Shown piece after piece: positions 5,901-11,900 of a DNA stretch of 64,000 nucleotides. The notes under the pieces were generated by a model. It saw nothing but the letters and a program-made list of their open reading frames with translations. It did no database searches and was not told the origin of the DNA. Both the position numbers and the translations under genes were made by a program. This DNA is from Paraspadella gotoi (Eukaryota; Animalia; Chaetognatha): assembly GCA_051294375.1 (NCBI GenBank), contig CM119269.1, forward strand, positions 21,189,665 to 21,253,664, given 5' to 3'. The first letter of the stretch is position 1; every line of letters starts with the position of its first letter.

Positions 5901-8900
5901 TCTTTTTTATTCAGAGTTGATAAGCTAAAGCTCCATCAGCGTCTACACACTGGAGAAGGCCGGGCTGACGTAAGTTGATTTTCATATATTCTTCGACTTA
6001 TACTAACGCCTTAGGAAATAGATCTGATCATTGGAAACAGCATGAAAAGAGACAGGAACATGGGAACAAAATTAGAAAAAAAGTATACATAAGCGAAATA
6101 TAATTTAATTTCAACTCTCGCCTCTTTCTTCTGGCATTGGTTTTTGGATCGATCCACACCTATCTCTTTTAGTAAAGGATTTCAATATGAAGTGGCTGTT
6201 TTCGATACACCTTTTAGTATGACTTAAAAAATAATGTTCGCTTTGGACCTTTTCTGGCAGCTCGGCGACGGAAACTCATTAGTGCCGTTTACAGCAGAAA
6301 AGAAGCATTTTTGTCAAGGCAAGTCCACACTTCTTTGACTTCTCTTTTTAAATTATTACAAAGATTATATTTGTTTGTCGTATATCTAAGCAGAAAGCTA
6401 TTTATAACATAAACAAAATTTTTTCCATCAAAAAGATTGCGGCAAAGGCTTTACAAGAATTGAAAAGCTGCGCATCCATACAAGAATACACACCGGCGTT
6501 AGACCTTATAAATGTCGGTTTAAAGAGTGTGAAAAAACGTTTTACCGTTGGGAGGCCTGGAAGAGGCACGAAACTCGCCACACAAAAGAGGTGAGAAGTT
6601 TTATGCTCGCCTAAACGCAATAAGTATGTTTGTCTCATTGCACAACTAAAAAGACCATGGATCGATCCAAACTAATTGTCGTAAAAACAAAATAAAATAC
6701 TTAGCAGATTCCGACCATACCGCGGGAAAAAACTCACATTTGCGAATGTGGGAAGGCATTTACTTTCGCGTTCAAGTTAAGAATACATCAGCGTATACAT
6801 ACTGGAGAACGACCATATTCGTGCCGGTAACGATCTATTAAAAGTATTACAAATGCTGATGTGACCAGTAATATAAAAAATCAAATATGGCTACTTTTTA
6901 AGTTTTTGCGAAAAAACCTTTTACCGCGGAGACCATTGGAAAAAGCATCAACAAAGTCACATAAATAAAGAACTAAAGGTGAGATGCTAAATGTTACCAG
7001 AGTTTTGCTGGTTTGGATCGATTTCATTAGTCTTTGAGATTTGTCCGATTGCGCATTTTTGGCAAAGACCAACCGAGAAGAATCCTTTACTTGTTAAGAT
7101 ATGGACTATATAGAGAAATGTGGATCTGTCCTTACCAGTAGAGCCTGGCGACATCTTATGAAAGGGCACGAAATAATTGTTGACAATTTGCACCGACAAA
7201 TCGCATAAAAATCTCAAATGTTCTTTGCCCCATCCAAGGCCTCAAATCAAAACGCCTTAGGGCCCGCTGGCATGAATTCCCTAAGCCTTTTGCCGAGGGA
7301 GCGAGCTGAAAAGAAACACTGGTGTGAGGAATGCGGGAAAGGCTTCACTCGCTTAGGTAGGGTCAATTGATAAGCTTGGTCTTTCGATAGAAAAAAAAAT
7401 TATTTCGATATTATCTAACATTATCAAACTCTCATTTTTTATCACGCTGACCTTTCAAAATAGACAAGTTACGGATACATAACCGGATACACACGGGAGA
7501 AAAGGTGAATTTATTTTAATGAAATTGTTGACCGAAAATTATACAAAATTTAATCTGCACCGACAGCCGTACACCTGCCAATATTGCCAGGAAGCCTTCC
7601 ACCGCTGGGACCAAAAGAAAAGGCATGAGCAAGCTCATGAGGCTCAGGTCAGGGAGGTATCCAATCTAAAACAAATCAAAGCAAAAAAAGTAAAAAGGAC
7701 CAGTATTATCACTAGACAAACCCTTTAAAGAACTGCTGGTCTCTTTTCATAACTGTTATACTGCATGATATCTTCAAAGAATCAGACGTAGTCTTTTCTA
7801 ATATCTCGAGAAAAGTTGAAATTCCAACTCTCCCTTTTCTGACAGTTAAATGGTACTTCTGCCCTAGTACCAGCTGGCCCTGCTGAGAAAAAACATTTTT
7901 GCCCTGAATGTGGCAAAGGGTAAGTTGATTTCATTCCACTTCTTCAAAATCCATTGTTCATGTACCTATACAATTTTTTTTTCGCTTTTTAGTTTCACTC
8001 GCATAGAAAAGTTAAGGATACACAATAGGTAAATGCCTCAGAAAAAGTGTAAAAATGCCAGTTTTCTTAAGATTTAATTCTATTAAACTAAATTTTTTGC
8101 CCATTCGCTCCGTCGATTACGCTATAAAACAATTATATAATCTTAGGATACACACTGGCGTTCGACCGTATGCATGTCGTCATTGTCAGAAAACTTTTTA
8201 CCGTTGGGAAGCATGGAAAAGACATGAAACTAGACACACTCAAGAAAAGAAGGAGGTGAGATTTTTGAGAAAATATATATTTTTTTAAAGAGATAGCCGT
8301 TTCCTTTGATGAGACCTATCATTAAAACAAGCATACCAAGCAATCAATACTAGTGAGAAAAAACTAAAATTATAAATATTTTACTGTACTACTTTACTCT
8401 TCAGCCGCCTATACCTCGCGAAAAAATTCATATCTGTGATGTCTGTTCCAAAGCATTCACTTTTGCATTCAAATTACGAATTCACCAAAGATTACATACT
8501 GGCGAAAGACCTTACCAATGCCGGTAAAAAAATATTGGTTAACTTATGATATATATTTTAAAATTAATATTTATCTTCATCTAAGATTTTGTGAAAAAAC
8601 TTTTTATCGGGGCGATCACTGGAAAAAGCATCAACAAAGTCACATAAACAAAGATTTGAAGGTGATACAATTAAAAAAATATATAAAATTTTAATGATAC
8701 AGGGTTTGGATCGATCCAAGCCAAAAATTTTATCCGTCTGTTTAACTAGTTTTTAACTGGTTTAGGCGAATGCAAACAATGCGCTGGTCCCAGTTCAACC
8801 TGGGTCATTAGTCCCCAGACCACGGGGTGAAAAAAAGCATTTTTGTACCGAATGTGGCAAAGGATTCACTCGTGCTGACAAATTACGAATTCATAACCGA

Positions 8901-11900
8901 TTACACACTGGCGAAAGGCATGTACTTTTTAGACCTCAAGTAAAACTTGAAGAATTTATAACTTAATTAAAATTTGAAAATTTTAAGGCCATATACATGT
9001 CAGTATTGTCAAGAAACATTTTATAGATGGGATTATTGGAAAAAACATGAAAAAGGACATATTGGAGAGGTGAGATTTTGAGTAAAGCTTAAAATTAATA
9101 GTTTGTATACATCATTTTTAATATTTTTTTTTAAGAATGGAGAAATATTGCCAGTATCACAACCACCAAGTACGAGCAGAGCATTGGTACCTCGTCAGAA
9201 TAACGGTCCAATCGTCCCTGCTGAAAAAAAATTCTTTTGCCAAGAATGTGGAAAAGGATTCACCAGGCATGATAGAAATTATAAATTAAAAATAGTTGTT
9301 ATTCTAACAAAAGGAATATTAATACAGGATGGATAAACTACGCATTCATAACCGCCTTCACACGGGTGTTCGGTAAGGCTCAAGATCCAAGAATTTTAAA
9401 ATTTTTTAATTGATTTGTGCAGTGATTTAATAGTGATCTTGAACCTAATACAGTCCTTACACTTGCAAACATTGTGCAAAAACATTTTATCGATGGGATG
9501 CATGGAAGAGACACGAAACCCGCCATGAAAATAAGGGAGAGGTGAGCAGCATCACACAAGTAAACTGCGCAGTGAAAAATTGGCAAAGCTGAAATTTTAA
9601 TTTTACATAGTAATGGTTGCTTGGTTGCTTAAAGACGAATAATAATTAGTAGGAAAAAAAATAAAAACTAAATTTCTTAATATTGCAGCCTGTAGTTCGT
9701 GAAAAATCCCACATATGTGATGAGTGTGGAAAAGGATTTGCTTTTGGATTTAAATTGAAAATTCATCAGCGTCTACACACTGGCGAAAGACCATACTCTT
9801 GCCGGTATTTTTCTTTCATAAGATTAATATTTCAAATAAATAATTAAATTAATAGATTATAAACTTTTTTAAAGATTTTGTGAAAAAACTTTTTACCGTG
9901 GAGATCACTGGAAAAACCACGAACAGAGCCATCTAAATGGACATATTAAGGGACAGGTAATCAAGATAAAAAGAAAAAACCAAAAACGCACACAAAAAAA
10001 ATTATTGATATCCATTTTTTTTAAAGAATGGGATGCTTGCCATAACTGCTGGAAATTCAGAAAATGGCGCCCTAGTTCCTAATGGCCCTCGCGCTGGTGC
10101 TCTAGTCCCACTTGAAAAAAAATTTCAATGCACCGAATGTGGCAAAGCCTTTACTAGAATGGATAAGTTGAGGATACACAACCGGATTCATACTGGGGTG
10201 ATGCCCTACGGGTGCCAATACTGTGAAAAACGATTTTATCGATGGGACGCATGGAAGCGCCACGAAATTCGCCATAACCAAGAGAAAGGAGAGGTGAGCT
10301 GCGCCACCTAATGTCTCACTGCGCAGTGTATTAAACAGCTCACTTCATAATGGCAATCCAATAGCAACATTATGTAAAATTAAACTTTTCCGTCCTGGCC
10401 AACTTATCACTGCGCAGTGAATGATATTTTCTTCTCACTTTTTTGAAAATTGGAGGAAATAGCCGAGAGGTTAAATTTTAGCTTTATTTCAAACTTCAAT
10501 ACAGCCACCAAATATTTTTATACCGACCTGCTATTTTCTAAATTATGAATTATATTTAATACTTTTATTAACTAGAAATGGAAGTCGATTTAAGAAATTA
10601 ATATTGTATGCAATTATCACAGCCTTTTAAAATTTTTTTAACAAATTACAAAAAACATATAAAATATAAAATTATAAAAAGCGAATAAGGGTGCAATGTT
10701 AAGGAATGTGTGACGTTAAGCAATTCAGAATTTTGAAATGGCTCTTTTTATCTCTTTAAACATCCATTTCTAGTTAATATGGCAATAATCTTTCAAAAGT
10801 TAAATAGCGACATTTTAATTTTCAGCCAATTGTTCGTGAAAAGGTTCATGTTTGTGGAGATTGTGGAAAAGCTTTTGCTTTCACTTTTAAGCTACGAATA
10901 CATCAGGTCAGTTAAAAAAAAAATTTCAATCCTTTTTCCAATTTTTTTAAAAAAAGGAATGTTAAGCAACTTACATTTTTATACTTATAGCGTCTTCATA
11001 CTGGAGAAAGGCCTTACGCATGCAGGTATGAAAATATATTTCATGAATAAAACATGGATATTTAAACGTATTCCCAGTTTTCATTTCACCAACGAAAATG
11101 AATAATACCAATCCTTAAAATGATGTGGCCATATTTTTTTAAAAATTTATCTAATCATTGAAATAAGTTTTCGTTTGATATCAAATATATAGTTGATTGA
11201 ATTTAAGAGAATTTAAATTATAAACTGAAAATCTTAAATTTATATCCTGCTAATAAAAATGAATTTTTTAGGTTCTGCGATAAAACTTTCTATAGAGGCG
11301 ATCATTGGAAAAAGCACGAACAGAGACATATTAGCAAGGGACAGGTACCTCTTTCAATACTTCAAACTTTTCTATCACTGTGCAGTGTTACAATCTTTTT
11401 TTTTAAAATAAACTTGCTGCATAAAAATTTCTATAATTTTTTTGACAACTGTGTGAAACCTATTACCGCCGCAGCCTGGTGATCCAAACAGTGCACTGGC
11501 AATTATAGCTGTGAAGAAACTACCGTGCGAAGCTTGTGGAAAGATGTTCAGTCGAGGAGATAAAATGAGGCTTCATTTTCGAGCGACTCATACAACCGAA
11601 GAAGCTCCCTACTCGTGTGCCTATTGCAACAAACGTTTCTTTCGTTCAGATCATTGGAAGAAACATGAGCAGCGCCACGTTAATCGTGGGCAGGTGAGCA
11701 AAGTGCCACCACAAAGGGAGCTGAAACAAGCCTCGATACAAATGTCCTCAAATTTAAAAAGGTTTTGAACTGAGATGAACTTGAAAGATGGCATGTTTCG
11801 AGTTTCCCTGAAAATTAAGATGCATGACTACCGAATTTAGGTTTAATAGGTTTCAGGTCTCTTGAATAGCAAAGCAATGATAAAGATGAACTATATTTTA

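What the first reader, a model, noticed from the sequence alone, without database searches (positions are those of the whole stretch)
6261..11693. Array of 11 frame-neutral two-zinc-finger cassettes: candidate Dscam-like combinatorial transcription factor
Seen: 11 paralogous two-finger modules (A-B-C-A-B-C-A-B-A-B-D), each bounded by a phase-0 acceptor and a phase-0 donor, between constant exons. Any subset can therefore be skipped in frame. Types differ in their recognition helices (A RIEKL/RMDKL with RWEAW/RWDAW; B FAFKL/FGFKL/FTFKL with RGDHW; C RLDKL/RADKL with RWDQK/RWDYW; D RGDKM with RSDHW). Known: insect BTB-ZF genes (lola, fruitless, broad) swap terminal finger exons, and Dscam uses internal exon clusters. 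Inference: internal, modular finger-pair choice would let one locus make many DNA/RNA-binding specificities, an arrangement I do not recognise for a non-BTB C2H2 gene.
Basis: partly seen in the sequence, partly recalled or inferred. Interest (0 to 1): 0.85.

Follow-up and report, generated by a model that had tools for sequence, protein, structure and literature searches.

The report
Splice-switched array of zinc-finger pairs
A gene, probably from an animal, carries eleven tandem two-zinc-finger modules, and its transcripts leave out whole modules or blocks of modules at places where matching intron sequences likely pair up and loop them out, which would let one gene make several versions of a predicted DNA-binding protein.

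Summary
Observation confirmed. 6261-11693 holds 11 intact, frame-neutral two-finger modules (24 exons) inside one C2H2 gene with 27 fingers if all are joined; no BTB domain was detected. The choice seen is not Dscam-like one-of-N, nor any-subset: 6-8 modules are kept, and the junctions seen allow 8 isoforms with 16-21 fingers. New here: five of six skips are flanked by complementary intron elements ranking 3-12 of 120 intron pairs. Two element families are palindromes concentrated in the array introns. The B2-C2-A3 versus B3-A4 choice has the crossed four-element layout shown for Drosophila serpent exon 4. Best reading: RNA-pairing-guided alternative splicing of multi-exon finger-pair modules (0.7). 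Pairing is predicted only. The RNA is one run, contigs only, unphased. No orthologous locus was available for covariation. Modules of one type share nearly the same base-contacting residues, so isoforms differ more in number and order of modules than in new specificities. New variant of a known kind.

The parts
2974..3163 (+). First coding exon (ATG 2974), modelled with a GC donor
   Evidence: frame joins to exon 3664; no Pfam family; junction not shown in RNA
3664..3825 (+). Constant exon E2
   Evidence: joint 3825>4419 in X1
4419..4954 (+). Constant exon E3: low-complexity region, finger 1 and first half of finger 2; no BTB
5419..5429 (+). 11-nt micro-exon E4
   Evidence: its letters appear in the loose ends at 4955, 5655 and 5912
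5450..5480 (+). 5' arm of predicted stem around E5
   Evidence: 24-nt, 92% inverted repeat; -31.5 kcal/mol
5658..5741 (+). Alternative exon E5, 84 nt = one finger repeat; included and skipped forms seen
   Evidence: joint E5>E6a and loose ends E4>E5, E4>E6a
5743..5774 (+). 3' arm of predicted stem around E5
   Evidence: rank 3 of 120
5915..5969 (+). Exon E6a, last exon before the array
   Evidence: joint 5969>6261
6022..6082 (+). Possible alternative half-finger exon E6b; not seen spliced
   Evidence: open frame; skipped in X1, covered only by an unspliced contig
6145..6156 (+). Palindromic element P1, copy 1 (before A1)
6261..6590 (+). Module A1 (exons 6261-6318, 6436-6590)
6658..6674 (+). 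Palindromic element P1, copy 2 (after A1); predicted to pair with copies 1, 3 or 4
6705..6978 (+). Module B1 (6705-6826, 6903-6978); included and skipped forms seen
   Evidence: joints A1>B1, B1>C1, A1>C1
7008..7025 (+). Degenerate P1, copy 3 (after B1)
   Evidence: pair with copy 2 ranks 12 of 120
7239..7647 (+). Module C1 (7239-7356, 7464-7504, 7567-7647)
7846..8255 (+). Module A2 (7846-7919, 7993-8028, 8147-8255)
8328..8357 (+). Upstream arm of predicted stem looping out B2-C2-A3
   Evidence: pairs with 9602-9631, -32.1 kcal/mol, rank 5 of 120
8405..8661 (+). Module B2 (8405-8523, 8586-8661)
8706..8719 (+). Palindromic element P1, copy 4 (after B2)
8766..9069 (+). Module C2 (8766-8917, 8988-9069)
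   Evidence: record 6
9136..9541 (+). Module A3 (9136-9266, 9328-9372, 9454-9541)
9563..9585 (+). Palindromic element P2 after A3; predicted arm looping out B3-A4
   Evidence: pairs with 10397-10420, -31.2 kcal/mol, rank 4 of 120
9602..9631 (+). Downstream arm of predicted stem looping out B2-C2-A3
9689..9956 (+). Module B3 (9689-9804, 9875-9956)
   Evidence: joints A2>B3, B3>A4
10027..10293 (+). Module A4, single exon
   Evidence: two C2H2 hits; predicted two-finger fold
10317..10328 (+). Palindromic element P2 after A4, first copy
10397..10420 (+). Palindromic element P2 after A4, second copy with extended arm
10826..11344 (+). Module B4 (10826-10906, 10991-11025, 11272-11344)
11372..11390 (+). 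P2 variant after B4; predicted arm looping out D
   Evidence: pairs with 12035-12053, -23.3 kcal/mol, rank 9 of 120
11475..11693 (+). Module D, single exon; intact, but skipped in the RNA seen
   Evidence: joint 11344>12149 bridges it
12035..12053 (+). P2 variant before the first downstream constant exon
12149..14014 (+). Constant exons E7-E10 (12149-12224, 12978-13121, 13220-13306, 13811-14014), Pro/Gly/Asn-rich linker
   Evidence: joints E7>E8>E9; E10 modelled only
14671..14984 (+). C-terminal finger pair (exons 14671-14783, 14846-14984)
   Evidence: modelled, no reads laid
15058..16440 (+). Six modelled C-terminal exons, Ser/Ala/His/Pro-rich, ending at a stop
   Evidence: open frame to the stop; no reads laid

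Best explanation
This is one C2H2 zinc-finger gene with eleven tandem two-finger modules whose transcripts skip single modules and multi-module blocks in frame, likely because complementary intron elements pair and loop the skipped part out. Shown: intact phase-0 modules; spliced include and skip forms for E5 and B1; A2>B3 and B4>E7 skip joints. Inferred from contig arithmetic: the alternative path A2-B2-C2-A3-B4, so B2-C2-A3 and B3-A4 behave as mutually exclusive blocks. Predicted: each skip is promoted by a stem whose 5' arm lies 21-73 nt after the donor used. The block choice would work as in serpent exon 4, with two crossed stems of which one forms at a time. The palindromic elements, likely copied along with the modules, would let any copy pair with another and open further skips. 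Inferred function: a transcription factor whose isoforms differ in the number, order and spacing of about four types of two-finger DNA-reading units.
For: Joints at GT..AG in X1: 6590>7239, 8255>9689, 11344>12149, 5969>6261, and both E4>E5 and E4>E6a. The longest word shared by two modules is 29 nt, below the 31-mer needed for a graph chimera. Record 6 is 745 nt = 28+693+24, the same flanks as record 7 (517 = 28+465+24), and bin depths fit an end in B4 best (SSE 2.9 against 6.4 and 41.7). Five of six skips have flanking intron pairs ranked 3, 4, 5, 9, 12 of 120 (rank-sum permutation p 0.0005 with the sixth at rank 77). Strong complementarity occurs in 10 of 66 array-boundary intron pairs against 6 of 495 other pairs (p 1.2e-6). 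Exact P1 occurs three times and exact or near-exact P2 five times, all in array-boundary introns of the 64-kb window, although synonymous sites are saturated and most internal intron positions differ between modules. The 11376/12038 pair carries one change on both sides that keeps the pair. An ENA protein from a relative joins B4 directly to E7 (60 of 61 residues identical, flanks unlike). The module folds as two canonical fingers, rmsd 1.0-1.6 A to several DNA-bound Zif268/WT1/ZBTB38 pairs.
Against: Pairing is computed only, with an ad hoc score, 30-40 shuffles per pair and a z cut-off of 3.5 chosen. The pairs ranked 1, 2, 6, 7 and 8 predict junctions (A1>C2, E6>C2, B1>C2, E6>B1, A4>D) that were not listed in X1; E6>B1 lay inside the stretch and was not seen. 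The E6b skip has no stem (rank 77 of 120). A3>B4 and A2>B2 were never listed as joints (16 of 31 joints were hidden), and B2 exon 1 had no cover. There is one run, of guessed RNA type, as contigs, so no phasing, tissue or cell information. No orthologous genomic locus was found, so there is no cross-species covariation. In the relative, D may be absent rather than skipped. DNA binding is inferred from family and fold; Trp at helix position 4 and the aromatic B-type helix are atypical.
Confidence: 0.7

Rival explanations
1. Skipping is real but is set by splice-site strength or protein regulators; the intron palindromes are by-products of module duplication or DNA sites for a dimeric protein, and do not steer splicing.
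For: Palindromes copied with modules are complementary to each other automatically; five of the eight top-ranked pairs match no junction seen; E6b is skipped with no stem.
Against: The two non-palindromic stems (around E5 and around B2-C2-A3) also match observed skips. The elements persist while synonymous sites are saturated. Pairs involving internal or constant introns are rarely strong (6 of 495).
Confidence: 0.15
2. One reading: free combinatorial choice of any subset of modules, or a Dscam-like one-of-N choice, giving hundreds to thousands of specificities.
For: All boundaries are phase 0; stem-predicted junctions would raise the paths from 4 to 41; summed depths of listed joints fall short of the depth of A1, C1 and B4, so unlisted joints may exist (depth is a poor measure).
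Against: All paths seen keep 6-8 modules; C1>A2, B3>A4 and A4>B4 are spliced in tandem; no common docking site serves all modules; helix residues vary little within a type.
Confidence: 0.08
3. The skip joints come from deletion haplotypes in a pooled sample, or from the assembly placing allelic blocks in tandem, not from alternative splicing.
For: No DNA run of the same individual was available; tandem arrays are prone to unequal crossing over (general knowledge).
Against: The two blocks are not alleles (pS 0.74 for B2/B3 and 0.84 for A3/A4, different module counts). The intron between them is continuous and holds arms for both stems. Four or more separate deletions would be needed. No other letters were listed within the exons.
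Confidence: 0.05

Closest known systems
Drosophila serpent (srp) exon 4 bidirectional RNA pairing (PMC4691838; abstract, Introduction, first quarter of Results and passages read)
   Same: Transcription factor with an internal choice affecting its zinc fingers; four intron elements (one upstream, two between the alternatives, one downstream) forming two crossed stems, as at 8328, 9563, 9602 and 10397 here.
   Different: srp chooses between two single exons of a GATA factor; here the alternatives are blocks of 7 and 3 exons (three versus two C2H2 pairs) inside a larger array with several other choices.
Drosophila Pip, CG42235 and PGRP-LC tandem multi-exon 3' cassettes (PMC6191721; abstract and passages read)
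   Same: Tandem multi-exon cassettes (Pip: 10 cassettes of 2-4 exons) selected by competing RNA pairings.
   Different: Those are terminal alternatives and not finger proteins; here the modules are internal, several are kept together, and a long constant 3' region follows.
lola, broad, tramtrack (BTB-ZF) and Cf2 (PMC3668361; one section and passages read)
   Same: Splicing changes the zinc-finger set; Lola isoforms read DNA with finger pairs; 10 Drosophila genes insert or substitute internal fingers.
   Different: No BTB domain was detected here. That lola-type finger exons are terminal alternatives is recalled. Supplemental Table 3, which lists the genes, could not be read and may hold a closer precedent.
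Dscam1 exon clusters, docking site and selector model (as described in PMC4691838 and PMC6071210; first fifth and passages of the latter read)
   Same: Internal array of duplicated units; complementary intron elements; origin by duplication of a unit together with an adjacent pairing element.
   Different: Dscam includes exactly one exon per cluster through a shared docking site; here 6-8 of 11 modules are kept and two element families are self-complementary (the words palindromic and self-complementary do not occur in PMC6071210).

Membership tests
Classical C2H2 zinc-finger protein | Cys2-His2 ligands with canonical spacing and TGE(K/R)P-type linkers | tested here: met
   all 22 module fingers intact; PF00096 above cut-off in the 4 finger exons scanned
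Classical C2H2 zinc-finger protein | Beta-beta-alpha fold superposing on DNA-bound finger arrays | tested here: met
   predicted model of A4, pLDDT about 75-87 over the fingers; Foldseek top hits ZBTB38, Zif268, WT1
Classical C2H2 zinc-finger protein | Sequence-specific DNA binding | not testable with these tools
   inferred from fold and helix residues only
BTB-ZF genes with alternative finger exons (lola/broad/fru) | N-terminal BTB domain | tested here: not met
   no BTB hit in the three N-terminal exons scanned separately against Pfam
BTB-ZF genes with alternative finger exons (lola/broad/fru) | One terminal finger cassette per mRNA (feature recalled) | tested here: not met
   modules are spliced in tandem and on to constant exon 12149
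Dscam-type mutually exclusive cluster | Exactly one variant included per cluster | tested here: not met
   6-8 modules per path
Dscam-type mutually exclusive cluster | One docking site complementary to a selector at each variant | tested here: not met
   all-pairs scan shows two palindrome families and separate stems, none shared by all modules
srp-type bidirectional pairing | Four intron elements forming two crossed stems around two alternatives | tested here: met
   8328-8357/9602-9631 and 9563-9585/10397-10420, ranks 5 and 4 of 120; predicted only
srp-type bidirectional pairing | Mutually exclusive inclusion of the two alternatives | tested here: inconclusive
   a two-path bubble is inferred; rare both-in or both-out forms would be dropped from contigs
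srp-type bidirectional pairing | Conserved, covarying stems across species | not testable with these tools
   no orthologous DNA found
srp-type bidirectional pairing | Disruptive and compensatory mutations switch the choice | not testable with these tools
   needs a minigene experiment

The most novel reading that the evidence does not exclude
The self-complementary intron elements form an any-to-any pairing code: each pre-mRNA folds into one of many competing loops, so cells draw from dozens of finger-pair arrays (41 array paths if the stem-predicted junctions occur), possibly cell by cell, and the same palindromes could pair between two transcripts to drive trans-splicing that repeats or reorders modules (pairing-aided trans-splicing is reported for mite sDscam, PMC9258826, abstract only). 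That would be a transcription factor diversified by a stochastic RNA-structure switchboard.
Probability: 0.15. Interest if true: 0.88.

Novelty: new variant of a known kind. Interest (0 to 1): 0.68.

Why it matters
RNA-pairing control of exon choice has been shown mostly for single exons or terminal cassettes in insects. Here the same logic appears to act on internal multi-exon blocks of a DNA-binding domain, in an unstudied lineage, partly through palindromic elements that become mutually complementary simply by being duplicated. The locus is compact (about 6.5 kb from E5 to E7), has short named stems, and makes junction-level predictions. It offers a direct test of the proposal that duplication of an exon with its neighbouring pairing element creates regulated skipping (PMC6071210), and of whether changing the number and order of finger pairs changes a factor's targets. 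Nine paper searches listed no report of such a C2H2 array; the library lacks most subscription papers.

Tried and rejected
No whole genome is held for this window, so paralogues elsewhere were not checked. The run search gave one run, RNA only by guess, with no holder on record as RNA; its spliced joints and near-empty introns are why I treat it as RNA. D has no cover in X1; only the bridging joint is used as evidence. Homologue searches with A4 and with a B-type region among longer proteins gave only generic poly-finger proteins (4 and 44 hits; 6 of the 44 inspected). The profile search gave one clear homologue among the best 150 (P0153); poly-finger proteins crowd such lists. Metagenome scans gave no orthologous locus: 73 pattern matches with none confirmed, and 4 loci without finger context. 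The ESM Atlas gave no answer, so the taxon stays unidentified; 'animal' rests on gene architecture and finger linkers. De Bruijn chimeras between paralogous modules were rejected (longest shared word 29 nt). A pseudogenising array was rejected (intact frames, low pN). A constitutive 27-finger protein was rejected as the only product (skip joints). Ikaros-type finger skipping is recalled only; two searches did not supply a usable paper. Earlier scan notes held nothing on this locus.
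Full report
Gene anatomy. The interval lies in one plus-strand gene modelled from ATG 2974 to a stop near 16440. With all modules joined it encodes about 1713 residues and 27 C2H2 fingers: three N-terminal, 22 in the array, two downstream. The three N-terminal exons gave no BTB or other effector family in Pfam. 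They are multi-exon units. Apart from one intron shared by the four B modules and one shared by C2 and A3, internal intron positions differ between modules. Synonymous sites between modules are saturated (pS 0.74-1.0) while pN within a type is 0.06-0.19, so the duplications are old and the proteins are under purifying selection. A tree groups A with A, B with B, C with C, without starred support. Fingers within a pair are joined by canonical linkers, pairs by longer variable spacers. A predicted model of A4 shows two beta-beta-alpha fingers that superpose on DNA-bound Zif268, WT1 and ZBTB38 pairs.

RNA evidence. One run holds the locus (X1, Logan contigs, RNA by guess). Directly listed joints at GT..AG: E5>E6a, E6a>A1, A1>B1, A1>C1, B1>C1; C1>A2, A2>B3, B3>A4, A4>B4, B4>E7. 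Loose ends show both E4>E5 and E4>E6a. So B1, E5, D, E6b and the block B2-C2-A3 are each skipped in some transcripts, and B1 and E5 are also seen included. One search listed 15 of 31 joints. The path A2-B2-C2-A3-B4 is inferred: record 6 is 745 nt, exactly the three modules plus the same 28 and 24 nt flanks as record 7 (A2-B3-A4-B4), the shared prefix and suffix lengths give the expected 30-nt overlaps, and bin depths fit this path best of three tested. Against this, B2 exon 1 had no cover, where the tool warns that a filter omits records. Graph chimeras are unlikely because no two modules share more than 29 nt. The junctions seen allow 4 paths through the array and 8 isoforms with E5, with 16-21 fingers. 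Whether the three choices combine independently is not shown.

Intron elements. A palindrome scan of the whole window found two motif families concentrated in array-boundary introns: P1 (exact at 6145, 6658, 8707; degenerate near 7010) and P2 (9563, 10317, 10408, 11376, 12038), mostly 20-70 nt after a module donor. An all-against-all scan of 16 introns ranked the pairs flanking the six skips 3, 4, 5, 9, 12 and 77 of 120 (permutation p 0.0005; one of the six is the inferred A3>B4). As a control, 10 of 66 array-boundary pairs but 6 of 495 pairs involving internal or constant introns reached z 3.5 (p 1.2e-6), and the strongest of those six is the E5 stem (threshold chosen). The five stems have duplex energies of -22.5 to -32.1 kcal/mol and would shorten the skipped introns from 485-1433 nt to 124-428 nt. 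The block choice has an upstream arm after A2, two arms in the intron between the blocks, and a downstream arm before B4, in crossed order. This is the layout shown by mutagenesis to control serpent exon 4 (PMC4691838). The P2 copies at 11376 and 12038 carry one change on each side that keeps the pair, plus one mismatch; this is a single instance. Against the model: five of the eight top-ranked pairs predict junctions not listed in X1, and the E6b skip has no stem.

Relatives. P0214 (ENA, 3 contigs) matches B4 exons 2-3 joined to E7 at 60 of 61 residues, with unlike flanks (3 of 18 and 3 of 21), so a relative or divergent population also joins B4 to E7; D may be skipped or absent there. The P0153 cluster (6 members) includes proteins with an A-type second finger followed by a B-type pair, and P0210, P0212 and P0213 have B-type parts with a different C-terminus. 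The module types and the A-then-B order are therefore older than this species. None of these proteins carries an informative name, and no genomic orthologue was obtained.

What the isoforms would do. By helix positions -1, 2, 3 and 6 the first fingers read R-(D/E)-K-(I/L) in A, C and D and F-F-K-I in B; the second fingers read R-(D/E)-A-R in A, R-D-H-(K/N) in B and D, and vary in C. By the recalled C2H2 code, Arg at -1 with an acidic residue at +2 reads G, so A, C and D pairs would read G-rich 6-mers; the aromatic B helix is not predictable. All paths seen contain A and B modules and C1, so isoforms change valence, order and spacing (ACABAB to ABCABCAB) more than the set of motifs.

Comparison and verdict. 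It works like serpent exon 4 and the Pip/CG42235 cassettes (pairing-guided choice) applied to finger pairs as in lola or Cf2. It is not a member of the BTB-ZF group or a Dscam-type one-of-N cluster, since defining features of both were tested and not met. Internal finger swapping in C2H2 genes is known (PMC3668361; its supplement could not be read). An internal 11-module array with multi-exon block exclusion and palindromic pairing elements was not listed by nine searches. New variant of a known kind; interest 0.68.

Noticed in passing
window 14811-14829 and 7118-7136: The 62-nt intron inside the C-terminal finger pair holds a P1-like element complementary to a site in the B1/C1 intron (z 4.7; -22.7 kcal/mol). 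A splice between them would not follow module boundaries; unexplained.
   Followed up: partly
window 6176-6202 and 10332-10360: A strong predicted stem (-29.6 kcal/mol) would loop out nine modules and join E6 to B4; not seen in RNA, but B4 contig depth exceeds the sum of its two known inputs.
   Followed up: partly
window 6022-6082: Half-finger exon E6b would complete finger 3 with an RSDHW-type helix like the D and C-terminal pairs; it has a weak donor and was not seen spliced, so it may be vestigial.
   Followed up: partly
window 3164, 6319, 8918, 9267, 15834: Five modelled GC donors in one gene, an unusually high share; only the A1 one is backed by a contig joint.
   Followed up: partly
window 6261-11693: Ten of 11 second fingers have Trp (one has Lys) at helix position 4 in place of the usual Leu; the feature is shared with P0153-type homologues.
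   Followed up: partly
window 20440-21180: Two near-identical copies of about 490 nt of GC-rich sequence separated by short 38-nt-period repeats; may be a mobile-element remnant or an assembly duplication.
   Followed up: no
window 13473-13703 and 23413-24129: Related AT-rich minisatellites of period 22-26 nt on opposite strands.
   Followed up: no
window 32449-34447, 54252-55830, 57467-58952: Neighbouring genes: a ubiquitin C-terminal hydrolase, a galactosyltransferase and a kinesin (Pfam hits); ordinary.
   Followed up: no
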